A stretch of 64,000 nucleotides of DNA from Balanoglossus misakiensis (taxonomy: Eukaryota > Animalia > Hemichordata): the NCBI GenBank assembly GCA_040954595.2, contig CM082586.2, forward strand, positions 3,702,349 through 3,766,348, given 5' to 3'. Each line of letters begins with the position of its first letter. Position 1 is the first letter of the stretch. Positions 39,209-64,000 of this stretch are shown here, one piece after another. A program made the translations under genes and the position numbers. Under the pieces are notes generated by a model. That model was not told the origin of the DNA, did not search any database, and saw only the letters and a list, made by a program, of their open reading frames with translations.

Positions 39209-40230
39209 TCAAAACCTTGCCTCTCTTACTTTAGCAGATATATTCTTAAGAACTTCCGATTTGGTGAAATCAATACTGGCGTAGTTACTGTCTGCCTTGT
39301 CATCACTTTCTGAAGTACGTCTGAGCGGTGAGCACGGCGACCGCGGAGATCGCGGCGAGCGGCTTTGCCCGTTTTCGTCCGGCTCCTCAGTGGGCCCAAG
39401 ATCTAAGGCAATATAGTTCAGTTTGGGCTCTGCTGCAGCGCCGAGTGATGCAGTCGCGGACTGCGGCGGTTCGGAACTCAGCGCTGCAGCCGCCCCGGCG
39501 CCGGGGAACTGCAAATTAAGATAGTCACTGCTACTTAAAGTCTGCTGCGAAGCACTGTCTGATTTCTCAGCTTTGGGGGGTTTGGGTAAAGGCAACGAAC
39601 TTGGACTCAGACTAGCTGCTTTGCTCTGGGGCACGCCCGAAACCTTTTGCTTCGGCGCGTCCTTGGTTCCCAGCTCCACGTTCATATATTCTTGGTACTG
39701 AGTAATTTTCTTGTTGGATTTTGGCATCCTCGGGGAGAGACTGGGAGAAATTTTTGGCGAAACTTTGGGTGATTTCTTCTGCTTGACATCGAGATTAACA
39801 TTGACGTACGACCTTTCGTCGGCCGGCAGAGGAAGTCTTTGCGGCCGTGGAGAGGCATTTTCACTCACTGCCAAACCTTGAACTCTGGACATATCCATCT
39901 GGGCATAATCGCCAGCGTTTTGTGATTTCTTTGAAAGGTTCACGTTCATATACTCGTGCTTATCACTCGTCGTTTGGCTGACCCCCAGTTTATTTTCAGG
40001 TTTCGGTGGCTCGGGGGCTTCGTAACTCATAGGCATGTACGTGTCTACAGTCTTAGCTGTCTTTTGGGATGTGCCCGTCGGGTACACAACTTTCGGTTTG
40101 ACCTCCGAACTGGCATGGCTGTGTGTTGTCTTCACTGCGGCTTGGTGTGGATCGCCACCTCCACTACCCGGCGCAAAACTCATATACGAGTCCAGTTCCA
40201 CTGAGTTCGGCTGGCCGGCAGCGCGCGTTT
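39209..40230 (-). CDS. IRS: IRS terminal coding exon (tyrosine-motif tail)
   Basis: Acceptor ttacgtttcAG, phase 1, 340 codons to TGA. Contains YMPM, YAQM, YMNV x2, YVNV, YLNL and the IRS C-terminal SHP2-type motifs LNYIALDL and NYASIDF. Confidence 0.95.
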
Positions 40231-40292
40231 CTGAAACGTAATCACAAAATGCAAGCAAGTCAGCAGGGTAGGCAGTAACACTATAATTGTAA

Positions 40293-40350
40293 TTAACCCT
40301 TTCACCCCCATTTCACTTTTATAGCGGTCCAACTCTACCATAGAAAAAAA
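40293..40350. mobile_element. Truncated piggyBac-like MITE copy
   Basis: ttaaccctttcacccccatt...ggtccaactctaccatagaaa. Confidence 0.55.
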
Positions 40351-42920
40351 TTAATTGTGCATGTACATTTAAATATGAACATGTTAAAAAATAAACAGGT
40401 GTCACACCCGTTTATTCAGTGTACAACCATCGAGGTATGCACACATGGGTATTAGAAGATCCACAAAATCAAAATTTTGTCACCTGTTGACTTAGGTAGG
40501 GGAGAAGATTGACATGTTTTTTATTAAAAATATTTAAAACGTGGCAGCTACTGGGGCTTTAAAGGAAATGCCCCAACTGAGAATGCAGGTAGTCGTGCAT
40601 TCATTCTCGTCCAGATAGCTATCTCGGCTATACTCATCTACCATGGCATCTACCATGCAACCCACCTACACGAAGATTACAGCTTAGACACACAAAACAT
40701 CACCGACTGCAAGATCTGCAGTATCTCACACAAAATCAACACAATGTGCATGGCTAGGTTTCAATTTGCTGCGTGCCTAACGGAAATGTCAAAACCATCA
40801 CAAATACTAATTCTGCTGGCATTAGATTTCTCCAAGTAATAAATTTGATATTTCCAGAAGGAAACCTTTCTCTTCCCAGAAGCAAATCTGTTTGGTAATT
40901 TCTGGAAAGAGGAAGTGTTGTCCTATTTGTCTGTTCAATTCACATAATATTCAAAACCGACAGATTAGCCTGCAGCATGGCACAGAAAATTGATTACAAC
41001 CAAATTATGTGTATTCTTATTCAGGAGACTTATTTAGGTTTTTTTTATTGACAGCCAGATTCCAGACATTTGAAACTCATGAAAAAATTGTGAATAACAG
41101 CAATACAGAAGATTTTGAAATTACTCGCATGATTATCCTAAGGTAGGTTGGGGTTCACTTTCTCTGATATTTAAAGAAAAAAACATCTTTATTTCATTTT
41201 CTCTGTCCTGATTTTAGTCTGTGTCTTTGAAGAAAACTCCAGACAGACTTTCCCTCCAGACATCTGAATGCTGTGAAAAACAAAAAAATCTTGCCACGAT
41301 TTTACAATTAAAGAGATGAAAATTCCATGATAATTTTCTGCCATGCTTTAAAATCCCTGTAGCTATATGTTCTAGCATTTTGTTCACTAAAAAGTATCCC
41401 ATTTTCAGAAATTTGTTTTGGATTCCCATCATTAAACCTTATCGCCTTTGAATATGCTATTATCTCAATCCTTGACAATGGATAAGGTTGATTTAAGTTA
41501 GATGCTTACGCATATATTTAAAAAGTACCACCATTTTGAAACAACAGTCACATGACAAATAATATTACTAGCGACATAAAATGTAAACCAAGTGTTTACT
41601 CATAGATTGTGTTCTAGCTCAAAGTTTCGTGACACTGATATACATTTGCTGTCAGTGTTTGAAATTTTCCATACGTTTGAAATTTTCCACACGTTTCTCG
41701 CTAGTCTGCTTCGGTGAGTATTTTGTAAAATGAGGCACGTGAATGTGGCATGTTTGGTCTTACATATTTTACTTTTTTTTCACGGCAAGGCTGACGATTA
41801 TGAGTCTACTATGATTGAGTTCCAAAATTCACTTCAGAAATTCAATATTTAATCCTTGGATGTGCGAACGCAGCTCAATAGCAGCGAGGTCTACCAAGAG
41901 TCACACCTTTCAAAATGCAGACGGTGTCAACTGATCGACTGTACAACAAGCAGATGCGCTTCTTGGCTAATTAATCACGTCAACAATAGCCGGCAATTTC
42001 CAAGGGCACATCTGCACCTTGTTTTCTTGCAAAATCTTCAGGCGATATCTAGGGAGGGCGTTTTCGAACAATGAAGGACTAATTTGACATGTGAACGAGA
42101 ATAATCTGACACTAATCTTCTGAAGAAGACTTGATGTAGAAAAATTCTCATAAATCATGGCTCTTTTCCTCTGAATGAAACCCTGTAACCCTGTAAACTT
42201 TTACATCTCCTCCAAGTGACGAAGTGTGTTAAGATAAAAAGTACCACTGAAACACGTCGTCTACTTGCCCCGTGGTTCAACCCAACACAAGCCACTCCCG
42301 GCTACTCATTATTAAAAGTGCATCCAATATTATTCCACGCGCCCATTTTTTCTAAAAATTTGACGCACACACACACTCCAGAAGGCAATTCTCTCATTGA
42401 AATAAAAGTGCATAGTGTCTTTTGTACTTCCAGGAAATGTTGAACATCAACAGGCAAGAAGTGATTGTCTGCATTACCTGGGGCAATGAACTTTGGTGGA
42501 GGTAAAAAAAAAGATAAACACATTGGCAAGACCTGCAGCGCTCCTTTCAATAAAATGAAACATGAGGGAGAAAATATGACTTCAAGGCCAAGTTGTTTAC
42601 TTCAAATCAGCAAAATTTCTACTGCTAAGGGACCTATGAATTCAACCGGTAGTAAACTGCTCAGAATGCCACAATATTTCTGTCCAATTTTAATTAAGGT
42701 AGAGTAGTTCAACTCCTGGGCAAAAGCATTTACAGGAGGAAAAGAAACACCTTCATGGTGATTATTTGTATCTAAGAGTAACAGTACCAAGAAAGTATAT
42801 TAAAAAAACTACAGCATCACTGGACAGATAGAACAACGTTTAAAAAGGGGTAAAAGGAACACTGGTGTGCCAAAACCACAAACATGAATACCGAGTCTTC
42901 GCATGGAAACACACTCGTAC

Positions 42921-43085
42921 CTGTTTTTGGAACAGCACTAGAAACAGGTGCCATGTCCATATAACCTTCATCACTCTTCACTTTTGTTTTGTTCACTTCT
43001 TTATTCACTGCTTCTTTCTGATTGACCGGTGAATCTCTGCTTTGGGAAGTGGTGGGGCTCATCGACATGTAGGACTCCAGTTCAC
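42921..43085 (-). CDS. IRS: IRS exon (165 nt, phase 1-1; YMSM, YMDM)
   Basis: catttcaccAG / ACAG|GTACGA; ELESYMSMSPTT...DEGYMDMAPVSSAVPKT. Confidence 0.9.
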
Positions 43086-43222
43086 CTGGTGAAATGATGA
43101 ACAAACAAACGTGATGTTCAGACATCCCATAGACGGTATCCAGGCAGATGGGAGGAGCCCTCACAGTTGAGAAAATCAGTTTCATTTGTCTACAGTAGCG
43201 GACCACGCAAACTGTTGCTTAC

Positions 43223-43342
43223 CCAACAAAGGTGTAGCATTGGCTGGCGACATATTAACGTAACTTTCTTGAGATTTGACTTTTGCTGCTCGGTCCATCT
43301 CCATGTAACCTTCGGTTGAAATGACCTTGGGTATGGCTTGGC
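43223..43342 (-). CDS. IRS: IRS exon (120 nt, phase 1-1; YMEM, YVNM)
   Basis: caattgcAG / TTGG|GTAAGC; QAIPKVISTEGYMEMDRAAKVKSQESYVNMSPANATPLL. Confidence 0.9.
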
Positions 43343-43729
43343 CTGCAATTGCAATATACGGAACAAAAAGAAAGACCATCCTCAATACAAATCTATCTCT
43401 TATGTGGCGGTAAATGTAATAAAGAAAAACATAGCAGTGCCAATATTTGTATTGTCAAATAATAACTTTTCAACCCCTGCACACAATCAAATATCAATCA
43501 CTCATTTCTCATTCAATCATTCCGTAACCAACCAACCAACCCACCCCACCCACCCTCACCACCAACGCTCCCATCCACCCACTGACTGACTCACTCACTC
43601 ACCCATTCATCCAATCAATCAATCCCTAGCATTCACCCCTTCACTCACTTGCTCGATCATACTGAGGTCACAAAAACCATCATTCAAATGAACTTCTACA
43701 TCATGCAAAATCCTTGATTTTTCTTTTAC

Positions 43730-43839
43730 CTTGTGAAACAGCTGATGGTGACATCGGCATGTAGTCATCTCCGGACTCCGTGCTTTCCTCTCGGATCGGC
43801 GTTCGACTTGGCGAGTCGGGAGTTGAAACTCTGCCGTAC
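43730..43839 (-). CDS. IRS: IRS exon (110 nt, phase 2-1; TPDS, YMPM)
   Basis: ttttgattcAG / CAAG|GTAAAA; YGRVSTPDSPSRTPIREESTESGDDYMPMSPSAVSQ. Absent from the ORF track. Confidence 0.9.
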
Positions 43840-44122
43840 CTGAATCAAAATATTTTACTACATCAGTACAGTGAAGTTGCTGATTTCACTTCCACAGTTT
43901 AAATCCTGACTCATCAGAATAAATTACCAGTAGTAGTTTGAATGGAACCAAAACAGATTCTTGTTGGCTGGAAGATTGAAGGAAAACCTGCAACTTCTGG
44001 TCATACAGCCAAAATTAAACACGTGCGCCCTCTTGTAACCTTAGAGTGAAAACTGAGGGCAGGGAGATCTCACTTGCATGGGGTTTTCCTCTGCGCAATT
44101 CATGTAACAAGTCAACCCTTAC

Positions 44123-44260
44123 CGATGGAAGTGTTGGTCTGCCGGACTGGATCCGTACTCTTCCGGAGTTCTATTCCCATCCACCGCCATCCCTTTGACA
44201 GTGCTAAGATGCCGGAAGAAATGCTCATCCGGGAAGCTAGAACTTTGCTGTGGACTTTCA
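44123..44260 (-). CDS. IRS: IRS exon (138 nt, phase 2-2; EEYGSSP)
   Basis: tttgtcttgcAG / ATCG|GTAAGG; EEYGSSPAD resembles IRS1 DEYGSSPCD. Confidence 0.9.
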
Positions 44261-46103
44261 CTGCAAGACAAACGGCATGCACAAAAGTCAAATGTGGAAC
44301 TATGTGATAATTTTATTTGATCCAAATCTTGATACTACTATCTCAATTAAAAATGGATTTGTAATATTCCTGCAGTTCAATGATCAAAAACAAATTATTT
44401 TTGGCACTTATTCTGGATGAACTTGCCGCTTAATTTTTAGGAATGGCAGTGTTGTTCACTGTCAATATTAGATTTTTTCCTCCAATATTTTTCTCAGAAA
44501 AATAGCACTGTTAGGCAAACTAACGATGATTGTATTGAAGCAAACTTCTTTGTATATAGAAAATATAGTTCGTCATGAAAGTGTCCAGATTTGAACATTG
44601 TGACTTTGTAAACAGCTGCTTTGTGCTTCAAGCTTTGGAGTAGTGATCAAACAAACAAACAAACAAAAGTGTTCTGTGAACGTATGAAAACATGCCATAG
44701 CAACAAGACACACAGCACTACAAAGCATGTCTCAGATTTTACAGCCTGCAACGATGGAATATTACACAGCAGTGAAGATTGTGTACATTAGGTGCCCACT
44801 CCATAATGGGAAAAATCAAAATCGTTACAAGTCTTGAAGTTTAAAGAAATTACACTTCTGAACGTTATTTCGCTCGATTCAGTCTCTGTGATTGTTTTAT
44901 ACAGAATAGAAACTACTCACACACAAGAAATATTAATTGAAATTTCGGAAGATTGTTTAGCTGCATTTCAATATGCACACACACTTGTTAATAATTGTCA
45001 ACGAAGAAGAAATATTTAATTATGGTTATGAGTAGGTCAGGTGAGCTTGTAGCCATTTTGAATTTTCAATCTGATATGACATCATGGTGTATTTTCAACC
45101 AAGGAAATTTAAAAGTTTCAAGATGAACAAAATTAAAGCCAAAGTTAAAGTGGAATTATACCGTTCCTGCTAGTGGCACTTTCAGGGAGAATGGCTACCC
45201 ATTGTTCATTTTGAGAAACGTGAGAAAAGTAGACCAAAAAATACCCTCTAATTTGTAAACTCCAGGAGAGAGGGAAGTACTATCACATATACAGCCTTTT
45301 CAGTGCTGAATAGAGCATCCAGATTATTTCACACTGAAACTTGAAAGACACTAATCTGCATTCTGATCTGGTATGTACTTTTTTTCTTGATTTCAGAGTA
45401 TTTACTCTTATCCTCTCATGGGTCAGATACATGCATGGAAAAAGGACCACTTATTTTCACGGATCATGGTGATCAAGAACAGTTTCTACTTTTCCGTTAT
45501 TTGGGGAACACAAATGGATATCCCTTTTCCCGGATAGTACCACCAGGAGGACACCGTTTCATAGTCCTCATAAAAAATTAAAATATTCCGATTCAATTTT
45601 TTTAATCTGTTCCTTTCTTTGAGACTTTAGGCAAAGATTTTTCATTTCGTCTACAGTGAACATTACAGCTTTACTCAAAATCAAGATGGCTTCTGTGGTG
45701 AACATGGTATTGCTAGTTTGAGAGCACACTGCATCTGAGGCAAATTAATGTGGAAAATATGGTGTCAAAGCTTTGAATCCCTAATCACAGATCTGAAATA
45801 AGAATGCCAGTGTATATGGTCAATTTCTATATCAATAAAATGTTGCTATATCTTCGCTTTCCTGCTGGAAAGCTAAACTATTTATATGACATCAAAATTG
45901 GAAAATAACATTTCCATAGACAAAACTTTGACACCATGGGTAGCAAAGCTAAAGCACAGAGATACTGGAAAGCGGTCTACCTCTATAGGTTAGTGAGTTA
46001 GAGGGTCACAACACTGCAACACTGCCACTCTCTTGCCATGATTGGTTCTTCAAGGAACCATGTGATGAGTGGTTCCTCTAGCTACCTAAAAATTACATCT
46101 CAC

Positions 46104-46247
46104 CTTAGAGGACTGTTTGAAACGGGTGGAGAGTGTGACATGGGCTGAGATACAGACCGTGATATGATGGTGTGCGGGCGCAGGCGGCCAATGTTGGGAC
46201 TGCTTCGTGGCTGACTCCCTATCGTCCTGGATCTCGACTTGCTGGGG
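46104..46247 (-). CDS. IRS: IRS exon (144 nt, phase 2-2; Ser/Arg/Pro-rich)
   Basis: tttctttcttgacAG / TAAG|GTGAGA; PSKSRSRTIGSQPRSSPNIGRLRPHTIISRSVSQPMSHSPPVSNSPL. Confidence 0.88.
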
Positions 46248-46440
46248 CTGTCAAGAAAGAAAAAAAGACGAGAAGACGCAGGAATAAGAACAAACATTGA
46301 GGGTTTTTTTGCCTTCGACTCTGACACTCAAACCACCGAAATGATACATGTCAAAAACAGCAATGCACATAGACATACAAGCCTGTCAAAAAAATTAAAG
46401 AGAGTGAAAAGAGGAGAGAAATTCTAAAAACGATAAATAT

Positions 46441-46631
46441 TTAAAGGTAAACGGTCACCCCTTGTTTACATATGCGTGTATATAGTCAAATGGACGTGAA
46501 TAAGTCTTCATATGACCTGTGGTGGCGCACTTCTTTTGCATCTGCCACCAACTGAAAATCTGTAATTCGCTATATTTTGATTTTCCATGGTAACCGTGGT
46601 TAAGTGTGCATAGGTGACCGTGTACCTATAA
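46441..46631. mobile_element. MITE with ~15-bp terminal inverted repeats and TTAA-like flanks
   Basis: ttaa-aggtaaacggtcacc (46441-46459) ... ggtgaccgtgtacct-ataa (46613-46631). Confidence 0.7.
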
Positions 46632-47025
46632 ACTGTCTAATACATGAAACTCAACAAAAAAATATACAATATAATTTCTCTGACGTCAATATTTGGCAGT
46701 AAAGTTTGGCTACACAGAATGACATAAAAGCAAGAATTCATCATTAATGCTGCGACAGCACAAGGAGGCGACATGGGTCAAACACCTTGACAGAATGTTA
46801 ATAGATTTTATTAAAATAAAAGAACAGAGAGGATATTTTAGAGCCAATATTAATGCTTCTACTGCAGGTTCACATTCAATACTTCAAAGCTAAAACATTG
46901 GGTGAGCAACAAAAGCTGAAGAAAGCAAAGCAACTGCCAACCCAGACCTTTGAAATCCCCAAACCCAACAAATTTTAATTTCTCCTCTAAATTTTCATAA
47001 CACAATGCGCAACAATGGGGTCACA

Positions 47026-47113
47026 CCCTTTCACCCCCATTTTCCGAAATATGGTTCCAGCCGCTACCATAGCAAACACTGGGGTTGAACCAACTGCTGC
47101 TGTGAAAGGTGTT
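47026..47113. mobile_element. piggyBac-like MITE copy
   Basis: ccctttcacccccatt...ctaccatagcaaacactggggttgaacca...gtgaaagg. Confidence 0.6.
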
Positions 47114-48058
47114 ATTAATATATATGTACTAGACAACAGTTGGAACACCTCCTGAAAGGCGTCAATTGATAAGTGGGAATTTTTATAAATACTGCAAGAG
47201 TTTATAATGGTAATGTATAAGTACTTACGACACAATGGTGTATATGAATGCATGCAATGAAAGTTGTATAAACATTTTAGAATATAAGTAGACGTAACTA
47301 TATTATACATTTATTTATCTACATGTAAGATTGTTATTTTCATCATGAATAAGAGATTCATGGACACATGTCAACACGAGCATTTGAACCAACTGGGATT
47401 CAGATCGGAGTCGTCCATGAATATCGTAGCAGCTCTCAATAATGACAAGAGTGATCCAGAACTGTTGCATGGTTATTACGGCCAGGTCAAGTTAACGGTC
47501 AAAGTGGACAGCGATCGTTAAGGTTATATAGTCATTCCCTTTCATTCTACTCATGCATCTCTCTTATTCTTGTCTTAACATTTTTGTCTACTTTTAAGTA
47601 CTAATGATGCGTTGAGATGGACAGTGAGATGGATGTAAGTGATAGTGTGAATGTGATGGTGGTACTGCAACACTAATGGTCTTTACAACATGCCTGTGTT
47701 TTTACAAAATTAGAAATGACTATGTTATGGATGGAATATGGTTGTAGGCATAGTTTAAGGCATGACAAAATTGCTTCACCACACAACTAACCTACGTCTA
47801 AACGAAAAGGCAAAACTGAACTGTTCCTTTGCAGACCGTGAAAAAAATATCTCCAAACCTACTGACACTAACTACCATGCCATCAAATATGCAGTGAAAA
47901 CAAAATTTACAAGAATTAAAAGTCTTCAGGGATTCATATACAGAAAAAAAAACTGAAAGAAAAGTAGATCTTAGTTATTTCCTAAAGATCTGCACACTGA
48001 GGTCAGGTGACTGCAAAATAGATCATGTGATTGTCATGTGGCTAAAAATGTAACAAAC

Positions 48059-48139
48059 CTGTCTGGATGACTGCCGCGGAAGTGTTTGTCACCTTCGCTG
48101 CTCGTCCGTGGTCGGAATCTACTTCCAAGTTTGAAAATA
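48059..48139 (-). CDS. IRS: IRS exon (81 nt, phase 2-2; FRPRTSSEGD)
   Basis: ccttccttttattcAG / ACAG|GTTTGT; IFKLGSRFRPRTSSEGDKHFRGSHPD resembles IRS1 FRVRASSDGE and IRS2 RVRTASEGD. Absent from the ORF track. Confidence 0.88.
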
Positions 48140-48727
48140 CTGAATAAAAGGAAGGACGGATATTAACAGCCAGTCAGTTAAGCATGCCGAGGCAGTATTA
48201 TGGGATGGCTTTTCGGTCGTCCTGACAACTGTTGGTCGCCGGGCAACTTACACAGTGAGGGGCGCCATCTCCCACTCATGCATCACAGTCAGGACTTGAC
48301 CTCATTTGCATAGGTCAGATCAGGTCATTACCACAGCAACAGCATGCAAAGCGTTTGGATAAGCAGTTCAGGAAAGACCGGAATGTGAAAGAAAAATGGA
48401 AAAAAAGGAAGTATGAAAGAATCAAGACAGAAGAATGGTATTTTCGTGTTAGTGGTTATTTATTTGTTACGTTTATCATTAAAGCTTGATGCAGGCCAGC
48501 CATGATTCATGGATGACGTGTGCACTTGGTGGTGTGAAGGAATAATAAAAAAAATTAAAAAGTGGGTTGCAAACTTTTCAAAGAGTTTGGAACCTCAGAT
48601 TTAGGGAAAAAAGTATGGGAAACTAGCATAAATTTGGAATAGGAAACAGACTCAGTAGAAATACATAGGTCTTTATGAAGGTAGAATTTTTTTGAAAAAA
48701 AAAAAAGAAACTCTACGACATAATCAC

Positions 48728-48826
48728 CTTGAGGCGGCCATCTTGGCTCGGATTTGACCTTCGCCCTCACTGCACGTCCGAGGCCTTAAGATGCCCAAGA
48801 ATAAATTCCGGGGAAGGCTGTTACTA
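48728..48826 (-). CDS. IRS: Candidate alternative/duplicated IRS exon (99 nt, phase 2-2; LRPRTCSEGE)
   Basis: First AG after a 482-nt AG-free zone, donor CAAG|GTGATT, open frame SNSLPRNLFLGILRPRTCSEGEGQIRAKMAAS, paralogous to the 48059-48139 exon. Confidence 0.7.
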
Positions 48827-49348
48827 CTAGGTTTTTTAATGGTGGAAAAATGACATGTGCAAAAGGCAACGGCAAGCAGATGATAAAAAATAATGCAACA
48901 ATGGGTGAAGTGTGATTTAATTGATGGAAGAAGACAAAAAGCAGTAGACAGGAGGTGAGATGTAGGGGATAGATTAGGTTGATTATATTAATTTTTTTGG
49001 TGTGAAGACAAGGAAACAGATCATGACCAGCCAAGACGGCCAATGTCAATCCCAATAGTGTCAATCAGTGTACATCAGTGTGTATCAAGGTGACAGTCCA
49101 TGTGGATCAATGTGAGTCAATGAGAAATTGATTTCAGATCAGAGTGAGCCAATGAAAGCAGTCATAGCAATATGGCAGATGTCATTCAATGAATTGATAT
49201 ATGCAAGTTGAAGCGAGAATTAGTAATTTTTGAAGAATGTAGACATGGAAAACGAAGAAAGAAATGGGAGAGAAAGAGTTAATGACGATAGCGGGAAGAA
49301 AATAAAGAGTCTTTCCAAAACTCTATGTCTATATGCGTTACAAAAATA

Positions 49349-49569
49349 ATTCTTGCTACCTTAAATAGGTGTTTGCTTTGTGTTATGGGGTCAAATCCCA
49401 TTATGATAATTGCATTATGGGTAAAAAGGTCAACAACAACTCAAGCGTTATATTCTGCTACAAAAATTCAGTATGACCGAACACTAATTTACCTTCTGAA
49501 CTTCTGTTGACCTCATGAGATTTTTATTACTCACCTAGGTAGCAAAAACCTATTTAAGGTAGTGAGAAT
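49349..49569. mobile_element. MITE-like element with ~29-bp inverted ends
   Basis: attcttgctaccttaaataggtgtttgct (49349-49377) versus the reverse complement of 49541-49569 (3 mismatches). A related single end lies at ~52571-52640. Confidence 0.65.
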
Positions 49570-51255
49570 CACCTGAGCAGCCCACTCACTCCAGCAATGA
49601 AACACCCAAGTCTGCATTTTCACTCGATGCTGTTGCAAATTTGCCAAACTTGACGACTTTGGAATTCGGCTAAATGGAATTCCCAGGTCATTGAATTTTT
49701 ATCACGTGAACATAACAGCCAATCAGAGTGGCAGATGCATTCAGCACATGAGTGACATGTTTTCAGACACAACACATACATAGACCACATGACAATCACA
49801 TTTCAAATTACTGGCAAACATTACTATGAGACTAAGGGGGGGAGGGTTAATATAATATCATAAGAAACACCATGGCAAACACAAAACATATTAACACATC
49901 AATCACATGACCAACATAGGAATCACATGGGGCTACATCATGTGCAACATGAAGAAAAGCACCTTAACCTACACCATCACTATGTAACACATGGAAGATT
50001 TCACAGAACTACATGTATGTTGTATGTGCATGACAACATTTTGTGATGCAAAGGTGAATCGCACAGGAAAAATTAAAGATTTATTTATTTAAACACAACT
50101 AGTACGTGCTACAATTATCACATGAAACTGAAGTACAGAAAGTGTGTCATGCAACATTAAGATGCCATGGAATGTTAAAAAGTTTGTTGCATGACATGGT
50201 AACAAGCAACATAACATAATGTGTGAAAGAGTCAAGTGGTGCAGTAGTGTGATATAGTTATTCAATCATTTGCATTCCACACATGATGTTAGCAGGACAT
50301 TGTACGATGGCACATTATCGCTGTATGACTAGAACACAACCAACCAATGCAACATGAATTGACACAAGGCACACCACAAACCACATTTCACTAGTTTAGC
50401 TCATTATGAACCAAAGCAACATCACTTCATGTCCTTTAAACTCGAAGACACACTGAGATGGACTTAGCCACTTCAACTAACATTCTTAGCGCTGATGGCA
50501 AACCCCTAAACATTTGCCAACCGGGTATTTCCCACCCAGCGGAGGGGACGAGGGGGGCAGGATAGGGAAGGGTACATCTGTACATGTCTGGTGGCTAAAC
50601 GTTACAGGGACAAACATTCTAGAACCAGTTATGTAGCCACACAACTAGATCTTGTTGACTTGGCGGCGCTGACACTACATACAGTGTATGTGAAACAAAT
50701 GTTGTTTAAGCTGACGCGATAATTATGGAGGTGGAAGAAGAGAAGCTATGCTTATGTCTTTATGATTCTATACATGACCGCATTTTGTATACAACTGAAT
50801 TTTTATTAACCTTCCATCATGCACTCGAACATATCGTTCGTTATGGGACTTGATCCGTGTATTGCAAAATTAGGAAAGTTATTTTACGAATGAACACCAT
50901 AGGTGTAAGCAGTAGGTGTATATATGGTGTCGGATACTGTGAAATACAGCGGCAGAGCAGATCACCCGATTCCTAGGACTGCAGAAGTGGTCGCGTGTGT
51001 ATAATCACTGTGGCAGCCATTTTGTTTGCGTGTTCACTGTGCAGAGCTGTACAAAGCCATGCTTTTTGGCATGTGCGCAATATGTACACCGCAGGCACAT
51101 CAAAACTGGTATAAAAAAACAAAAAAACAAGCCCACACTTCTATTGGGAGATCTATGTTATATTACACGTACAATAAAACTCATATTTCATGAGCACATG
51201 CACAGTATATCATGCAGTCAAAGACGGTGTACCAGAAAAAAATGCATGCACTCAC

Positions 51256-51489
51256 CTTCCCGGGCTACGGTCACCCCTGACCTCCTCTCCACGTCCCAAC
51301 ATCCGCGAATGCGCTGGCATGCTGTCACACCTTGTGCGACTCAACCTGTTGGCCATAGAGGGCACACTTCCGGGGGTTCCCGGTCGCCTGGGTACTGATA
51401 TTGGATTGGTCAGCTCTGGGTTGGTTGCACCAGTACTTCGACTGCGGGGGCGCATGTCGTCATCTATATGACTCATGTTCCTCATGGCA
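51256..51489 (-). CDS. IRS: IRS exon (234 nt, phase 2-2; end of PTB helix and RxRxxS motifs)
   Basis: gaaacttcAG / GAAG|GTGAGT; AMRNMSHIDDDMRPRSRST...TNPISVPRR...RTRCDSMP resembles IRS1 AMRAMSDEFRPRSKS...SNPISVP...RSRTES. Confidence 0.93.
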
Positions 51490-52309
51490 CTGAAGTTTCG
51501 ACAAGAAATCAGACATTTTTTTATTAAGAAGGATCAAAAGAAATATTATAAATATACTATGGGGGGGGGGGGTGATTGCAGAATACAAACTGATGCACGT
51601 TTTACTATGTAAAATATCAACGTGCTAGAAGGGAGAGTCTCTTATTTAGAAAAATTGCAATGTTTGAAGTTAAACTGCCATCCATCCACTGTTATACCCC
51701 AGAAATGTTGATAATTTCACCGACCAACTCAGAGCAGTCCAACCCCCCTGAGGCCACATATAAAATCGGATAATGGTTTTGACACCAAAGACCTTATCTG
51801 CTGAGTCTAAATTAATGCATTCTGGTCTCTTCAGCAAATGTCAGCGCAATTTTTGCAAATGTTTGCCGCTCGTTATCGTACTCAGATGTAGGCTGGGGGT
51901 ACAATTTGATCAATTACGGGCGGTGTTATTAAAAAAATTACAGTTGCGCTGAAATTGTTCAATCTTCCCGTTAAGTTCAAGAAGCCAAACATGTAGGAGT
52001 AAGGAAAGGCTGGGAAAATGTCAAGCACATGCATGAAAAGTAGGGAAAAACTGTTATGCAGATGTCTCTGCTAACATAACTAGCAAAATGCAGCCAGCGC
52101 AATAACCACCCACAAAGCAAATTCATCCGTAGAATGCCATGTTCTCTGGCCAATTTAGCGCAATTTTCACATTTTTCTCTCGTCTATTTTTGCCATCCAG
52201 TTTAGACAAAATGTAACATACTGGCATTTGCTAGACTAAAGTACAGGGTTAAGTCATTGTTTTTGGACAATATTACAGTATAAAAAGAAAAATGTCGTTT
52301 GATTCTTAC

Positions 52310-52452
52310 TTGAGGATTGACTCATGCATATTTTGGGCAATGATGGTGTCTTCAACAAGCATCCACAGTTCGCCGGCACCAGTAACTGCCGAACGGCCAA
52401 CTTCCATGAAAAAGTAACAGTCTGAATGTCCACACCGTCGTATACTACTCAA
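52310..52452 (-). CDS. IRS: IRS PTB domain exon 2 (143 nt, phase 0-2)
   Basis: tttcctgttgcAG / TCAA|GTAAGA; [47 protein letters not shown], close to the IRS1 PTB core [44 protein letters not shown]. Absent from the ORF track. Confidence 0.97.
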
Positions 52453-53103
52453 CTGCAACAGGAAAAAAATTGTGGGTCAATTTTATATCTGTTTTTGAAT
52501 AACAGAATGCAAATACAGCATAATCCTTTTTTGAGCAGTAAGACTATAAGTGTATACAGAGGCAAGAGGGATGCTGCTACCCTAAATAGGTTTCAGCTAA
52601 CTAGACCAGTAATAATAAAAATCCCACATGGTTGACAGACGATGACACATTTCTGCCATGGTAGTTCAAGCTTTAATAAAAAAATAACCAACTCCCTAGT
52701 TCGACTGCACTTGCTTCTCTTGACACATATTCTTTTTTGGCTTGCGCTTGGGGCTCTAAGCTAAACTTCATAGTTTTCATCAATTTGTGACATACTTTCG
52801 GAACTACGCCTTCAGCAACCATGTCGTGACATTTCTTGGCCCCTTGTTTTTAATAGGGTCGCTGGACTCGTTAACAAGGAAATGGGGTAAAAGGGGTTAC
52901 ATTCGTCATCCCACTGAGCTCTAAAAATGACATTCATTTTCTGATACCCGGAAATGGCACAGATCTAGTTCAAAGCTATCAGTGACCTGACTTCAAAGGT
53001 TGGAAGTCTTTCCTACATGAAGTTGCAGTTCAGTAGTCAATAAAAGAAAGATGGGGTTTATTTTTCAACGAACAAGGCATTTATGAAAATATTGAAATCT
53101 TAC

Positions 53104-53243
53104 TGGAAAAACCATGTCTTCATTTTCTACATTCATCTTGACGAGGTTGAGTGTTGTTGACGTCAGACACAATCTGTAGGACCCTGTTACATTCTTGCTG
53201 CTTCCCAGACCGCGAGCCTTCAGCGTTACTTGCCACACATGCT
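53104..53243 (-). CDS. IRS: IRS PTB domain exon 1 (140 nt, phase 1-0)
   Basis: ctttattttttAG / TCCA|GTAAGA; EHVWQVTLKARGLGSSKNVTGSYRLCLTSTTLNLVKMN resembles IRS1 EVWQVILKPKGLGQTKNLIGIYRLCLTSKTISFVKLN. Confidence 0.97.
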
Positions 53244-54771
53244 CTAAAAAATAAAGAATATTTTGAAGATTCAATACAGGTTTACATTGTCCTGTACTGA
53301 CCTTTACAAGATGGTCTTGTTATGAACAAGAGTATGCAATCATTTTACGAAAAAAGAGTTGTGAGAAAATCAACAGAAGTTGACAAGAATAGTATAAAAT
53401 GTCTCTTGTTATTTTTCCCAAGAGGACACACACGTGCAAAGTTGCTGCTCAGAACGTCACATGAAAGAAGTCAATTTCCACTGGATGGAAAAAACGCAAG
53501 TGTTCGAAGCACTATCATACATCATGACTCTTGGGACATTCTCTGACAAACGCTCCACTCCTGACAAATTGAGAACATTAAAATTCTGAAGTGAGATCGT
53601 ACATCTTAACACATACACACGTAGGCCAGCAGATCTACAATACATGCATCACAATTTTTCAACAACAAAACAGCAGCTATTTCATATGAAGTCCAATTTA
53701 GCATTCTGTTGTGGCACTGAGGTTTGACTGTGCAATGCCAGAATACCAGAAATTTGGGAAGATAACCATGCTTTGAAACTAAAATTTGGCACTGACAATT
53801 ATCTGCATGGTCATTTGGTCTTTTTACAAGGTTTATGTTTAGGTGGGAAATTGTAGCCAAGTCATAATTAAGTCCCTGTTCTGACAGACACAGTCCTGTT
53901 TATAATATTTTAATTTTCATGTGATCACTGAATGAGCTAAAAAAAGACCAATTCTGTTCTACAATACACTGTGCAGCACTTAGTAGTGTGTTGCCATGGT
54001 TTCTACCTATCTACACTCGGTCAAACAAGATTACATAATCGCCACCTAACCGCAATCTGATTGGACCAGCTGAATGACCCCATAGCATACAATGTGGGAA
54101 GACCTCCTGGTCGTGACTGTCTGAGAATTAGTCATTAGCCACAATCAAATTGTTGCAAATATAAATGCAGATTTGCAAATGATACAATCTCACTGTTTTT
54201 TGAAAATTTCTAAAAGAAAATTTAATGTACAAAATAACCTTCAATGTATGATATGCGTATTATAATTTTACTATTTTCAAAGAGGCACGGATCAAGTCAA
54301 TTACAATGTTAGGGGGAAAAATTTTTAGTTCGCTGTCTAATAGTTCAACCAATGGTTGGCAAGAGAAGCTCTAGCTGGACATTCTTTATTGTAAACAAAT
54401 TATCAGGGAGATATCTGCCATGTGACCTTTCACCCAGAGAGTGATCGGTGTGAAGAGTGATTTGAACTCTTCCAATTGCATTGTCGCTCCAAAAATGAAT
54501 TGCAGGGGGGGGAAATTCTCACATCAACTCTCATTGGGTAAATACAGACAACATTTTAACTCTGTCATTGGCACAGGTTCCAAATTTCTGCTTTCATTCA
54601 TTCATCAAGTTCCGGGCAACATGAAAATAGTGACTACATGTACATCCTTAGCCAACTGAGCTGATATTTGCCATATATTGCATAAGCATAACCTGTCATC
54701 CACGGCGGAAAACTTTTTTCTCAACTGCTTTGGGATGACAAGTTACAACCTAATCTGGGTGTGTTTATATA

Positions 54772-54819
54772 TGTGTGTGTGTGTGTGTATGTGTGTATGT
54801 GTGTGTGTGTGTGTGTGTG
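54772..54819. repeat. (GT)n / (CA)n microsatellite directly after the alternative-exon donor
   Basis: Direct reading. Confidence 0.95.
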
Positions 54820-54826
54820 CATGTAC

Positions 54827-55154
54827 CTCTGCTAGGAACTCGAACAGGTGGTTCCGTCAGATGTCCATGACTGTACGCCGGATTGATGTAGTCACCGTCC
54901 TCCGGGATGACCATGGAGATGTCACACGACCACACACTCAACGGCCGGGGCTTGGCGCTCATCTGTCGCGCCCCGTACAGCTGCGGGCAGCTGGCGCGCC
55001 GGTTCGCCAGGTACTTATACCTCTCCATCGCCGGCGCTGAGGTGGGCATTTCGGGAATCGTCTCTAGCCGCTCCTGTGTTGCTGCTGGTGGCGTGTTTGA
55101 CCTTGATTTCCGTCGCAGCGCGGACAACTTCTTCCACAGACTCTGCGTACACAT
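54827..55154 (-). CDS. IRS: Candidate alternative first coding exon of IRS (109 codons, PH-less isoform)
   Basis: ATG at 55154 with an in-frame upstream TGA and no acceptor tract. GC-rich open frame. Donor AGAG|GTACAT in phase 1, matching the PTB exon acceptor at 53243. Contains RRAS and DGDYINP motifs. Confidence 0.72.
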
Positions 55155-57300
55155 AATGTTGACTCAGACGCACACCTCACGTACTGCAACTCCGCATCTT
55201 GAAACAGCTCCTCCCCAGGCTGCAATTTTCCGACTTCCAACCAACAGCGATTCCTCACCTAGGTGGGGTTTCCTTACACTCCCACCGTGGACATACAAAA
55301 AGTCAGGTGCATACTTGTTTTGCTAGCTAAGTGTCAGAACTGATTAGCCAGTTAATGATACAGAGACCACAGTTTGCCAGATGGGCCCAGTGATAAGGTT
55401 GTTTGGCCCAAAACCTGCCTGTTACACAATAACCAACACTGAAGCCTGACGTACACTATACACTGTCAATACAATAACCACTGTTCTCCAGTTCCTTCTA
55501 ATCAACAACTGATCTGCAAATCATTCCTTTGATGTTTATCATGTGTGCATACAACACCATCAAGAGGAATTCTTTCACCAAATATAGAAGTCCACTGGGT
55601 TTCTCTCATTGGCCCCAGAAATCCTGAATGAGCAGTGACTTTTCATATTCCCCAAAAGAGGGGGCGTGTCTCACTGGTCAGTCTCCTGAAGTGTGAATTA
55701 ATGTTTGCATTGATTTCGAGACTATTTTAATGAAACACTGAACAATTTTTAACCTCCAGGTCTCATCCTGTGTCATGGTGGTCGTGAATAATATAGCCAT
55801 ACCTAGCCAATCCAGGGTTTCCGCTCAACCAAGTGAGGGCGCTTTAACTGTACGTAGCTTACTAAAATGGCGTGAACGTGAATATATGCCTTTTGGTCAC
55901 AATTACATATAAAGCAATTCATGCGACTGGCGGCACAGGTGGAAATTGTTTAAAGCAGTCGAGACAAAACCTAGAATCAGAATTCCTGATGACCCCTGTA
56001 TATACATGTATGACCAAATGTGTCATACATCACACATCAGTTCCTGGAAAACAACTGAAACAAACACTTCTAAGAATTTGATTCACATAACCGAAAGGCA
56101 TTCAATTATGTGGCTGTTCAAATATGTCACATGCTTTTCTGTAAGCAGTTTTTTTTTTGTTCCTCATACACCACAAATCATTATCTGCTGGACAGGAATT
56201 CAATAGAAATGTAAAAGGGGTTAAGATTGTCAGTGTTCACAATTTCTCTGTGTTCCTAATTATTTTGACAGCATGCATCCATATGGAAACTGAAAATGTC
56301 AGTGTCAAAGGGAAATGGAGTCCTAACACATTCAGTCAATTTTAGGAAAATTCTTCATTTTACAAATGTTTATGACAATGTATAATATTTTTGTTCAGTG
56401 ACCATATTTAAGAGACCCAAATATTTGCAATGGGTCAAATTTATCAAATCTTCAACATATGTGCAGTTAAAATTAAAGTGCCAGTCATAGAAGATATCCT
56501 ATATTTATGACACTATAAAAATATGATAGTGACAGTATCAAATTTGAGCGGAAATGAGTCACAGTTGGAACATAAATAGCATCAAGACAAAACACACAAT
56601 AAAACAACCCAAAATAATCACAAAGTGTGATGCAACCAGATGTATTTTTGGCAACTCGGAGAAACACGTGTACACCCCAACCCTGAGAAGACCACCACAC
56701 TGCACATATATGATTTATTACGAGTGATTCACGAAATGTGTTACAAAATCATATTTGTTGATGTAATCTCGCAACTCTTCAAGTGAACAACCTTGAAAAC
56801 AAAACAGTCAACAAGTTTTCCCGATGAGTCAAGTTTTCTGCAGTGTCACAGGCGAAGGTGGGCTGGTCCTGGGCAACTCCCATCCATCGCCTCTCGCTAA
56901 ATTTTGATTACTTTGACGGTGTATGTCTAGAAATCAGAGAAAGAGGGCATGCAACACTCGCTGTAGTTTGAAACAGCGCCACCTGCGAAAGTTATAGATG
57001 GAATCAAATGCCCTTTAAGTCAGCATGAGCACAGATATAACAGGCTACATGAAACACACAAAAAATAGTCCAACCAATATCAACAGATGGCATCTATTAC
57101 ATCCCAAGGATTTATCCCGAACAAGCCAATCACAAAAGGAAGCAGACACGGTGGCTCGGAGCATAGAACTCCATGTGAAATCTTCTCTATCAGTTCAACA
57201 TTGTGTCCGAGCTCTTACACAAAAAAAGAGGATTAAAAACATCCTGCTGGGTTCTTTTATTCAAGTAAGCGGCAAGGATTTTCAGTTGAGATCCCTTTAT

Positions 57301-57393
57301 TACCCCTTTCACCCCCCAGTTCTCTCTATAGAGGTCCAGGTTTACCGTAGAAAACAATGGATTTGGACTGAACCATGTTGGGGAAAGGGTTAA
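57301..57393. mobile_element. piggyBac-like MITE copy
   Basis: ccctttcaccccc...ggggaaagggttaa inverted termini ending in TTAA. Confidence 0.65.
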
Positions 57394-59252
57394 ATACAAC
57401 CAGGGCAGCTCAGTTTAATCATCCATTTTCAGGAGCTTATTCAAAGAAGAGAATCTTACACTGATCTACATGCACATGTGCGTCACTGCGTCTGTCAATG
57501 TGATCGGGCCTGCAGGCCGCAGCGTGTTATATGATGTGTACATACACAGGGGATCGCCGTCCCCATAATATCAAACTTTGCATCGATGATATCCATGCAA
57601 AGAGTTAATGGGATTGTCGACACTTTTACTTTTATTCTGAACAGCCTGATTCGTATGATTACACACAAAATGATGGTAACAGGTTGAAAATATACGTGTA
57701 CATGTACGTGTGGGTGTGTATGTATTTCATACCATGAAAATGGATTTAATCTTTCAGTCGCTCTTGTTCCATTTGTACACGGTTCAGCATATCAGAGTTT
57801 TGCATTCAGCCAGCTCTTTCTCAGGAGAAAGGACACGATTTAGAATGATGTCTGGAAAAGTAGTGCCTGTCTAAAACTTAATCTTAATAATGCATTAATC
57901 TGTGGTGGTACAAGGCAAAGTACTGCCTTCAAACTTTCCTATCAGACGAAAGCTTTCACTAGTACTAAAGGTGGAAAATAGCATTTCTCTTGTTATACAT
58001 TTAGGAGCTTGGGCAATTGTGTTATTTGTATCAGCTCTGTCAGCAAGAATCTTGTGCCTCGACATTCACACAAACATTAACTATCAAGTACGCTACATAT
58101 TCCACTATATTACAAAATTTATCATCATTGGTCAGGATGAAATGGTATTTTTGGAGTTGATAAGCAAATATTTCTCTCAAGCTGGCTGAAAATAAAGACT
58201 TATAAATGCCACGTATGACACATACAAGCTTTTGTCATCTGTTTCCAAGGTAACTGTATTGTAATCCAAAATGGCCGCTTTTGTCAGTGAAAAACATGGC
58301 CGACATCATCAAAACAACGTACATGTATCCCAGTAACCAGGAATTTGTATAATGCAACACGGAATTACTACATTTTTTTTGAAAACATGTTTTGGACTTA
58401 ATGGAGTAGACTGAAATCAAGTGTAGAAACCCTGAAAAAGTCATTAAATATTACAAAATGTATATATTGGAGAAGGGCTCTACCAGGAGTCTTCACAAAC
58501 TTCAATTACAGCAAGACAGAAGAAGCAACGTCAATTTATGGGGGAAAAATTCTAGAAAAAGAAGCAGCAGATGGATTCTTTGCATGTGCAAAAATTGATA
58601 TCTCAGTATACAAAAAGCGATAATGATTTCTCTTCACTGTTGTACGCAACCAAATAGGACTCTTGTCATTCTCGAGACCTAAGGGGAAAAAATCTGTTGT
58701 TCCTGAAGGATTATAGATTCCAAGCCTACAAGCAGCCAAACACGCTGCCGTCTATTGGCCACCATCCAACTAATATAGGCTCGATATTTCCAAACAATAA
58801 TATTCATTGTGGGAGTTTTAATACCCAGCTGAGAAAAAGACGAAAACAAGATTTCTACACTGCTTTGCAGAGTTACAATATAATTCTTGGCAACATGCCA
58901 ACCTGAGCTGGAAATTCAGGATGGCTTTTTGAGGCCCTGTAACCATCATGGTGTAATTACTTTCTGGCGGAGATGCCTGTGACTCAATGCTTTTCTTTTT
59001 ATCATACATGGTCACAGGCCACGCTGTTGTTTGCATTTCATTAATGCTTGTGGGTTTTTCCATCTCAAATGAAGTGCTAACAACAATAACACGAAAGTAG
59101 GTCGTGTGCATGCATGTCAATATTCCTGTCTATCTCTCCTGCCTTGACCCCTTTTTATCAATAACCTTGAAACTGACACAATTTTATTCTTTTTTTATTC
59201 CAAATCACCCTGGTTGTTCTAATTTTTAACACACGTTTGTGCGCACATGTGG

Positions 59253-59418
59253 TCTCTCTCTCACTCTCTCTCTCTCTCTCTCTGTCTCACTCTCTCTCTC
59301 GCTCTCTTTCTCTCTCTCTCTTCTTTCCCTCTCTCTCTCTCTCTCGCTTTCTCTCTCTCTCTCTTTCCCTCTCTCTCTCTCTCTCTCTCACTCACACACA
59401 CACTCACACACACACACA
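59253..59418. repeat. (CT)n + (CA)n compound microsatellite
   Basis: Direct reading. It accounts for the low-complexity ORFs at 59237-59741. Confidence 0.95.
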
Positions 59419-59482
59419 GTAATTTCCCCATTACCACCCCCACCCCCCAATCCAACCCAACTGCACCTACAGAAGCACCTAC

Positions 59483-59792
59483 CGAATGCTGGTTGGAGCG
59501 GCAACCCTTCCTTGGATCCAGACTGTTGCAACTTCAACATGGCCATCAACCAATCCTCTTGCTCCTCAGCTGTCTCCGCGGAAACGGAGAAGCACTCGTC
59601 TCGGGTGTACAGAGCCACTACATTTTTTTGTTTAGAGTCGGCCTTTTTGTTGATGTTGAAACAAGTACTGATAACAATGCACCTCTTGGGGGCACAATTA
59701 GTGCGAAATTTCTTCTCGTTGTCATAGTACTCCAATCTTGACGGGCCAGACTTGGTTTGGGACCGGAGAACGAAATATTTCTTTTTCATTGT
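59483..59792 (-). CDS. IRS: IRS PH domain exon (310 nt, phase 0-1); upstream first coding exon not found in the window
   Basis: ctctctttctgttgcAG / TTCG|GTAGGT; TMKKKYFVLRSQTKSGPSRLEYYDNEKKFR...CFNINKKADSKQKNVVALYTRDECFSVSAETAEEQEDW resembles the IRS1 PH domain (RLEYYENEKK...CFNINKRADSKNKHLVALYTRDE). The 11 exons sum to 2607 nt in one frame. Confidence 0.97.
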
Positions 59793-62700: not shown

Positions 62701-64000
62701 TCTTGTACCGTTAGACCTTCACAAACATAAATTACAGGACTTAGTACCTAATACCAGTAGTTTTTATAACACAAACAGATTTTTGTATCCTCTGGTTTTA
62801 ATCGCCAAAATGTTCTAGACAGTGTCCATGCTTTTATTCAGTGCACGTTTCATCTTCTCCCAGTCTCCGTTATTCTCATTTGTAACTATTGGTTTACTGC
62901 TCAGTGAAGGACAAATCAGTAAAAAAAACCATTGTCACTCCTGATGACCTTGAGACGTGACCATGGCAGGAGTTAATTAAAGGGGGGTACCCTCCGACAG
63001 GCGTATAAGCTGTATAGACCTTTTAATCAGTCCAGTGAGAACCCATTCAGAAAATCCCTCGGCATCTGTTGGGACATGTCTGTTCGTGTCATCCACTACT
63101 CAAGGTTCCAAAATCGTGCCGATTTTATCCTCCCGTGAGCCCCCTCAAGGCCGCTCCTTCCCAGAATGCAACAGTTGCAGGGGGGCATCTGATGGGAAAG
63201 CTGCACTCGGCACAAGCAGAAAATTGTGCAACATGATTAACCTTCCAAGCTGCATCGTTTGATCAGTAACTTCACCTTTTTTAATCCACTCAGATAATTC
63301 TTGTTTGTACTACTAAGTAAAACAAAGTATATGATAAAACAATTTCGGGGTTTCAAGAATAATGACCGGTCAACACCATGGACTAGATCTATAAATGCAG
63401 AAGTAGGGACAAAGCAGACATCTAAAATGATTTGTTATGTCTGTGAACATCTACTTCCACAATTCTGTTTTTAGGTTTTGATCGGAATTTCCAACACACA
63501 AACTCAATCAAGCAATGAATGAGACGCAGTCATCGCGACCAACAGGAAGTCACGTTGACTGATGCCAAACATGCCCATTTACAAACATGGAATAGTAAAA
63601 ACGCTCTTGTAAAAAGCATTAGTTTTTTTTTTTAGTAATGGACTGTAGAATGAAGGGTCCATTTGTACGTCTGTGTACATGCAGTGACAGGAATGCTCAA
63701 TGTACTATCACACTGTTATTAGCAATATCAGATTGTCGCTTAATTTGTATGTAAGCAACACCTCAAAATACAGCTATTGGATGACAATTTTTAATCAAGT
63801 TATTTTATTCAAAAATATTTTCCAAGTGCTTTTCAAAATTCACTACTTCTCTTTTGCTTTGGTTCCACAACACGATTGTCTCATGCAATATTCGGCAAAA
63901 ACAAACTACTTATTCTAGGTGTAGTGTCCACCTGGGGATCAGACCAGAGACGGAAGTGACTGAATAGCCTCGTCTTTGTTAAGTAGTTTCTCGCGTGCTT

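What the first reader, a model, noticed from the sequence alone, without database searches (positions are those of the whole stretch)
54827..55154. Internal alternative first exon predicting a PH-less IRS with a Cys/basic amphipathic N-terminus
Seen: a 109-codon ATG-initiated GC-rich frame inside the PH-PTB intron whose donor phase matches the PTB exon, giving an 874-aa protein. It starts MCTQSLWKKLSALRRKSR and adds RRAS (PKA-type site) and DGDYINP (YxN, Grb2-type site). Known: canonical IRS proteins use PH+PTB, whereas FRS2 uses a lipid anchor plus an IRS-type PTB. Inference: one locus makes both a PH-targeted adaptor and a possibly palmitoylated/polybasic membrane-anchored, FRS2-like adaptor. 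I know of no description of this arrangement.
Basis: partly seen in the sequence, partly recalled or inferred. Interest (0 to 1): 0.85.

Follow-up and report, generated by a model that had tools for sequence, protein, structure and literature searches.

The report
PH-less insulin receptor substrate, new tip
An acorn-worm insulin-signalling adaptor gene (IRS) carries a conserved extra coding exon that likely acts as a second start, swapping the usual lipid-sensing PH domain for a short basic helix predicted to hold the protein on membranes; a brachiopod's gene models show the same swap.

Summary
The exon is real. An ATG at 55154 opens 109 codons to a phase-1 GT donor at 54827. Joined to the PTB exon, this gives exactly 874 aa. 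The peptide is 56% identical to the N-terminus of 6 of 19 RefSeq isoforms of the orthologous Ptychodera flava IRS gene. All six lack PH, and none of the 19 holds both. The first 18 residues (16 identical, Cys2 kept), RRASxP and SVWSCDISxVIPED are conserved; the proposed Grb2 YxN site is not. Lingula anatina has 3 of 5 IRS models that replace PH at the same junction, one with an amphipathic basic start, without detectable sequence homology. Best reading: a second promoter makes an IRS held at membranes by a basic amphipathic helix, perhaps S-acylated, independent of phosphoinositide sensing. That anchor is untested (0.55). The closest precedent is mouse Gab1-beta (internal first exon, PH lost, palmitoylated), not FRS2, whose Gly2 is absent here. 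No RNA reads were available for this genome. My literature searches found no such IRS isoform described. New variant of a known kind.

The parts
54827..55154 (-). Alternative coding exon, likely a first exon: 109 codons from ATG to a phase-1 GT donor
   Evidence: 56% identity to the N-terminus of P. flava PH-less isoforms
55101..55154 (-). Residues 1-18: Cys2 plus a predicted amphipathic basic helix; candidate membrane anchor
   Evidence: 16 of 18 identical in P. flava; residues 6-16 hydrophobic moment 0.57, net charge +5
54984..55001 (-). Residues 52-57 RRASCP: basophilic-kinase site that also fits the RxxSxP 14-3-3 pattern (motif meanings recalled)
   Evidence: RRASYP in P. flava
54894..54935 (-). 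Residues 74-87 SVWSCDISMVIPED: best conserved internal block, second conserved Cys (77), role open
   Evidence: 13 of 14 identical in P. flava; no Pfam match for the exon
54870..54890 (-). Residues 89-95 YINPAYS: two conserved tyrosines; YxN not conserved; NPxY here, NxxY (NAAY) in P. flava
59483..59792 (-). PH-domain exon of the canonical isoform, phase-1 donor; its upstream first exon was not found in the window
   Evidence: 88% identity to P. flava
53104..53243 (-). First PTB exon, shared acceptor for both forms
52310..52452 (-). Second PTB exon
   Evidence: 47 of 47 identical to P. flava
39209..51489 (-). Eight downstream exons of the shared tail, with 7 YxxM and 5 YxN motifs, ending at the stop

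Best explanation
A conserved 109-codon exon inside the PH-PTB intron likely starts a second transcript of this acorn-worm IRS gene, giving a PH-less adaptor whose basic amphipathic N-terminal helix is predicted to hold it on membranes. Shown: the exon is coding and splice-compatible, and orthologous gene models use it in place of the PH exons. Inferred steps: (1) an internal promoter fires upstream of 55154; (2) Met1 is removed and Cys2 is N-acetylated rather than oxidised, since Thr follows it, and may be S-acylated; (3) the Leu/Trp face and Lys/Arg residues bind acidic membrane without a PH domain; (4) the unchanged PTB and YxxM/YxN tail then couple the insulin-like receptor to PI3K and Grb2 from a pre-positioned pool; (5) phosphorylation of RRAS, with 14-3-3 binding, would replace PH-lipid sensing as the control on this form.
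For: 6 of 19 P. flava RefSeq isoforms start with this peptide and lack PH; 13 have PH; none has both. Identity is concentrated in the first 18 residues and two motif blocks, across frame-keeping indels. In the P. flava isoform none of 821 18-residue windows beyond residue 25 reaches the N-terminal hydrophobic moment. No YAG from 55500 to 54830 has a pyrimidine fraction above 0.60, against 0.65 or more for 10 of 11 used acceptors. Lingula isoform X3 replaces PH with an amphipathic basic start (moment 0.87), and X5 with a basic stretch plus RSFSYP. Precedent: Gab1-beta loses PH through an internal first exon and is held on membranes by a palmitoylated amphipathic N-terminus (PMC6176924). Thr after N-terminal Cys is depleted among ATE1 substrates and favoured by NatA in human systems (PMC12377780, PMC11199558).
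Against: No transcript, start site or localisation was observed for this genome. RefSeq X-isoforms are automated models and I did not see their read support. The helix is weakly hydrophobic (mean 0.24 here, 0.13 in P. flava). The combined charge-and-moment score is not specific: the start of an ordinary PH domain scores as high, 2.51. There is one N-terminal Cys and no Gly2, whereas FRS2-alpha palmitoylation depends on myristoylation and full binding needs both cysteines (PMC13143043). The exon is the least conserved of the 11 (55% against 70-100%). Its sequence was found in one other species only, and 0 of 2 Saccoglossus and 0 of 43 echinoderm records show such a form. CpG content does not separate it from internal exons.
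Confidence: 0.55

Rival explanations
1. The isoform is real but is a soluble attenuator. Without PH it couples poorly to the receptor and competes for PTB, PI3K or 14-3-3 partners. The conserved exon serves mainly as a phospho-regulated interaction segment (RRASxP, the SVWSCD block, the N(P/A)AY tyrosine).
For: Three conserved blocks lie outside the helix. PH is the stated membrane-binding element of IRS, and 14-3-3 binding suppresses IRS-1 phosphorylation (PMC4443775 passages). Gab1 lacking the whole PH domain is cytoplasmic (PMC6176924). Lingula X5 carries RSFSYP with only a modest helix.
Against: It does not explain why residues 1-18, with Cys2, are the most constrained stretch, or why Lingula X3 begins with a strong amphipathic helix.
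Confidence: 0.2
2. The basic N-terminus is an organelle-targeting signal (nuclear import, or a mitochondrial presequence-like helix) rather than a plasma-membrane anchor.
For: No acidic residue before position 28 (31 in P. flava) and net charge +6 to +7 over residues 2-19. Nuclear pools of IRS-1 and IRS-3 are described.
Against: A conserved Cys2 and Trp7 are not needed for nuclear import (general knowledge). The tail is a tyrosine-motif scaffold that works at receptors. No targeting predictor was available.
Confidence: 0.12
3. Cys2 is an oxygen-sensitive N-degron (ADO/ATE1 route), so this IRS form accumulates in low oxygen.
For: Met-Cys start conserved in both species. One TACGTG element at 55178, 1 of 17 in the window (its reading as a hypoxia element is recalled).
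Against: Thr after Cys is depleted among ATE1 substrates, and polar residues favour protective NatA acetylation (human data). A single hexamer is weak.
Confidence: 0.05
4. It is not a first exon: either a cassette spliced between PH and PTB through a weak internal acceptor, or a chance frame in GC-rich intron DNA.
For: A phase-compatible CAG at 55036 with pyrimidine fraction 0.60. 7 of 500 simulated introns give a frame this long.
Against: The best conserved residues lie upstream of that acceptor, behind an in-frame stop. 0 of 19 P. flava models join PH and this exon. Coding bias is frame-specific.
Confidence: 0.05

Closest known systems
P. flava RefSeq IRS isoforms X10, X13, X15, X17-X19 (XP_070534216, 219, 221, 223-225)
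   Same: Orthologous exon, same start, same junction to the PTB, no PH; 78% identity over the whole isoform to the best match.
   Different: Automated database models, with no description found in the papers searched. YxN and the Pro of NPxY are not shared.
Mouse Gab1-beta and hamster Gab1 delta1-103 (PMC6176924; abstract, introduction, start of results, passages and discussion read)
   Same: One docking-protein locus, an internal first exon, loss of PH, and an N-terminal amphipathic Cys-bearing segment; there membrane anchoring by palmitoylation is shown.
   Different: Gab has no PTB. Its new exon is non-coding and the anchor is the leftover last helix of PH. Here a separate 109-codon exon supplies the helix and extra motifs.
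FRS2-alpha/beta (PMC13143043; passages read)
   Same: N-terminal anchor, IRS-type PTB, tyrosine-motif tail, no PH.
   Different: A separate gene. It needs Gly2 myristoylation with Cys4/5 palmitoylation, and its tail binds Grb2 and Shp2. Here there is Cys2, no Gly2, an IRS-1-like PTB and 7 YxxM motifs.
Canonical IRS1/IRS2/Chico/IST-1 (PMC4443775; passages read)
   Same: Same gene family, PTB and tail; the PH form is encoded at this locus.
   Different: The review gives PH plus PTB as the common IRS architecture and says IRSs lack a membrane-targeting modification; this isoform lacks PH.
Lingula anatina RefSeq IRS isoforms X3, X4, X5
   Same: PH replaced by unrelated N-termini at the same EHVWQ junction; X3 amphipathic and basic, X5 with RxxSxP.
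   Different: Three different N-termini, none with significant similarity to this exon (84-722 of 1000 shuffles score as high); X3 starts Met-Gly.

Membership tests
IRS (gene) | IRS-type PTB domain | tested here: met
   PF02174 above its cut-off in the orthologue; solved matches are IRS-1 only, 3 of 3; window PTB exons 96-100% identical to the orthologue
IRS (gene) | N-terminal PH domain encoded by the locus | tested here: met
   PH exon 59792-59483, 88% to P. flava X1, which scores PF00169
IRS (canonical protein architecture) | PH domain in this isoform | tested here: not met
   No Pfam match for the exon; orthologous isoform has PTB only
IRS (gene) | Tail with several YxxM motifs | tested here: met
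   7 YxxM motifs after the PTB
IRS (gene) | Phosphorylated by an insulin-like receptor | not testable with these tools
   Needs cell assay
FRS2 | Gly2 myristoylation site | tested here: not met
   Residue 2 is Cys in both hemichordates
FRS2 | Palmitoylated N-terminal cysteines | not testable with these tools
   Cys2 present and conserved; acylation needs experiment
FRS2 | PTB closest to FRS2 | tested here: not met
   Every gene-named record among the best 120 of 1223 hits is called IRS, none FRS2; no FRS2 chain among solved matches at E 0.001; no tree built
Gab1-beta-type PH-less isoform | Internal promoter and first exon | tested here: inconclusive
   Fits sequence and RefSeq models; no start-site data
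Gab1-beta-type PH-less isoform | Anchor formed by the leftover PH helix after a non-coding exon | tested here: not met
   Here a separate coding exon replaces all of PH
Gab1-beta-type PH-less isoform | Constitutive, palmitoylation-dependent membrane binding | not testable with these tools
   Helix properties only
Cys/Arg N-degron substrate | Met-Cys followed by a basic or hydrophobic residue | tested here: not met
   Met-Cys-Thr; Thr depleted among ATE1 substrates

The most novel reading that the evidence does not exclude
The phase-1 intron between PH and PTB is an old exchange point in bilaterian IRS genes. Invertebrates plug alternative first exons into it to swap the lipid-sensing PH domain for a lipid-anchored, kinase- and 14-3-3-switched helix. 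One IRS gene would thus give both a signal-recruited and a permanently membrane-bound insulin adaptor, a mode missed because the studied IRS proteins all carry PH.
Probability: 0.3. Interest if true: 0.72.

Novelty: new variant of a known kind. Interest (0 to 1): 0.5.

Why it matters
IRS proteins are defined by PH plus PTB. A conserved natural isoform that drops PH and gains its own targeting segment would show that animals with one IRS gene diversify insulin signalling by promoter choice, as mammals do for Gab1. It gives a ready natural pair (same PTB and tail, different head) for testing what PH contributes to receptor coupling and to PI3K feedback. Seeing the swap in a deuterostome and a protostome at the same junction suggests the arrangement is wider than two species. 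The value is limited by the Gab1-beta precedent, by the isoform's presence in RefSeq and by the untested anchor.

Tried and rejected
No whole genome is held. No RNA holder was listed for 52300-60000, so no reads were laid; this is no evidence on expression. The two-sequence exon alignment found nothing at E 1 among 68 candidates of 58-191 aa, and nothing among 25 pattern matches in metagenome contigs; no DNA of a relative was obtained, so no dN/dS. The search of 50% representatives gave 4 weak hits (E 6e-6 to 6e-4), all repetitive unnamed proteins, set aside as probable chance. The ESM Atlas gave nothing useful: 0.76 for the exon; 0.84-0.88 to PTB-only vertebrate clusters for exon plus PTB. 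Single-sequence AlphaFold of exon plus PTB had mean pLDDT 37 and was not used. The complex job for PTB with exon residues 62-103 returned no answer, score 0.01, which is no evidence either way. CpG observed/expected (1.03 against 0.26-1.19 in other exons) did not mark a first exon. The sigma-70 scan does not apply to an animal and was ignored. Lingula N-termini found no match in the window (best E 0.18). The PH frame check had an offset error and was redone. Five look-ups of earlier findings were empty. Paper searches for a PH-less IRS isoform: searches gave 0 papers; others (3; 7; 6) listed none on such an isoform by title and abstract start; one search listed 15 of 229 hemichordate papers, none with the term insulin receptor substrate. 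The library lacks most subscription papers, and no supplements were read.

Full report
Observation. On the minus strand an ATG at 55154, with A at -3 and an in-frame stop just upstream, opens 109 codons to G|GTACAT at 54827. The PH exon (59792-59483) and this exon both end in phase 1 and both join the PTB exon at 53243 to read EHVWQ. Length alone is weak: 7 of 500 simulated introns matched it. Codon bias is frame-specific: 0.39 per codon, at most 0.17 in the other five frames, and at most -0.04 in 5584 intron windows.

What it is. The peptide hit three Ptychodera flava RefSeq proteins among 53 candidates (E about 2e-20, 56% over 95% of its length). Listing that gene's isoforms gave 19: six begin with the orthologous peptide and lack PH, thirteen have PH, none has both (Pfam check on one of each). 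The window is therefore most likely an acorn worm nearer Ptychodera than Saccoglossus (PH exon 88% against 77%, last exon 67% against 47%). RefSeq X-isoforms are automated and usually rest on RNA alignments (my recall); I did not see their support. No RNA run was listed for this genome, so transcription here is inferred.

First exon or cassette. The best conserved residues sit at the very start, behind an in-frame stop. No YAG between 55500 and 54830 has a pyrimidine fraction above 0.60, while 10 of 11 used acceptors have 0.65 or more. One weak phase-compatible acceptor at 55036 remains possible. Seven short upstream ATG frames lie within 450 nt, so the start site is probably close or these are upstream ORFs. 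CpG content gave no verdict.

Anatomy. The exon is the least conserved of eleven (55% against 70-100%), but identity is clustered. Residues 1-18 are 16 of 18 identical. RRASCP/RRASYP is kept; it fits both a basophilic kinase site and the RxxSxP 14-3-3 pattern (motif meanings recalled). SVWSCDISxVIPED is kept, with a second Cys. Two tyrosines follow. The second tyrosine lies in NPAY here and NAAY there, a possible PTB-ligand motif whose role is open. Residues 6-16 have hydrophobic moment 0.57 and charge +5 (0.69 and +6 in P. flava), the highest moment in the P. flava protein (0 of 821 later windows reach it). Mean hydrophobicity is low, and the combined score is matched by the start of an ordinary PH domain. 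Thr after Cys2 argues against an oxygen-sensitive degron and for NatA acetylation, on human data (PMC11199558 and PMC12377780, passages).

How wide. The PTB search found 1223 proteins; only the best 120 were listed, mostly fish. With cluster members I tallied 89 named invertebrate records in 17 groups, leaving out short fragments, tail-only models and unnamed records. PH-replacing N-termini occur in 2 of 17 groups: Ptychodera (6 of 19) and the brachiopod Lingula anatina (3 of 5; PTB only by Pfam). None was seen in 2 Saccoglossus, 43 echinoderm or 12 arthropod records, apart from one N-truncated scorpion model. One of 8 amphioxus models starts inside the PTB. Insects, molluscs and annelids were not examined. 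The three Lingula N-termini join at the same EHVWQ. X3 starts Met-Gly with an amphipathic basic helix (moment 0.87) and X5 carries RSFSYP. None is significantly similar to the hemichordate exon, so this is a shared arrangement, not shown homology.

Mechanism. I read the exon as a replacement head. An internal promoter yields an IRS whose acetylated, possibly S-acylated, basic helix keeps it at membranes without PH, whose PTB and 7 YxxM motifs signal as usual, and whose RRAS site offers kinase and 14-3-3 control. The isoform is about 0.9 likely; the anchor brings the whole to 0.55. Rivals are a soluble attenuator (0.2), organelle targeting (0.12), an oxygen degron (0.05) and a cassette or chance frame (0.05).

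Comparison with what is known. The gene is an IRS: the only solved matches are IRS-1. It is not FRS2: no Gly2, and FRS2-alpha palmitoylation depends on myristoylation (PMC13143043, passages). The real precedent is Gab1-beta, where an internal non-coding first exon removes PH and a palmitoylated amphipathic remnant anchors the protein; that paper also cites PH-less Gab2 forms and suggests a general mechanism (PMC6176924). An IRS review lists PH plus PTB as the common architecture and says IRSs lack a membrane-targeting modification (PMC4443775, passages). A Gab review (PMC2747914, passages) added only that myristoylation redirects Gab2. Searches showed no paper on a natural PH-less IRS isoform; most subscription papers are outside the library.

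Verdict. Real, conserved, already present as database models, and analogous to a published Gab1 mechanism, but apparently undescribed for IRS and seen in two phyla. New variant of a known kind; interest 0.5.

Noticed in passing
window 48728-48836 (-): Optional exon that P. flava models use in a long and a short form or skip. Here the protein match runs to about 48834 (94%), but there is no AG at the long form's start; in-frame AGs lie at 48826, 48823 and 48817.
   Followed up: partly
window 54772-54819 and 59253-59415: Microsatellites begin just after both competing donors: (CA)24 on the sense strand 7 nt after the alternative exon, and a long GA/GT tract about 70 nt after the PH exon. Any effect on splicing is untested.
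   Followed up: no
window 55178, 55447, 55608, 55807, 55908: Upstream of the exon: one TACGTG, one TACGTCA, two CCAAT and one TATAA match. Counts across the window are 17, 12, 134 and 202, so none is notable alone.
   Followed up: partly
P0159 (Branchiostoma hybrid RefSeq isoform X3): An 826-aa model that starts inside the PTB domain and so lacks PH and a third of PTB; may reflect another internal start.
   Followed up: no
P0179 (Lingula isoform X4), residues 1-60: Third alternative N-terminus, with SPLAV twice and three cysteines in the first 19 residues.
   Followed up: no
P0123-P0125: Unnamed repetitive proteins with a repeat resembling exon residues 40-105 (E 6e-5 to 6e-4); probably chance.
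   Followed up: no
window above 59792: The first coding exon of the PH form (about 48 residues in P. flava) has no match in the window (best E 3.1), so it likely lies beyond base 64000.
   Followed up: partly
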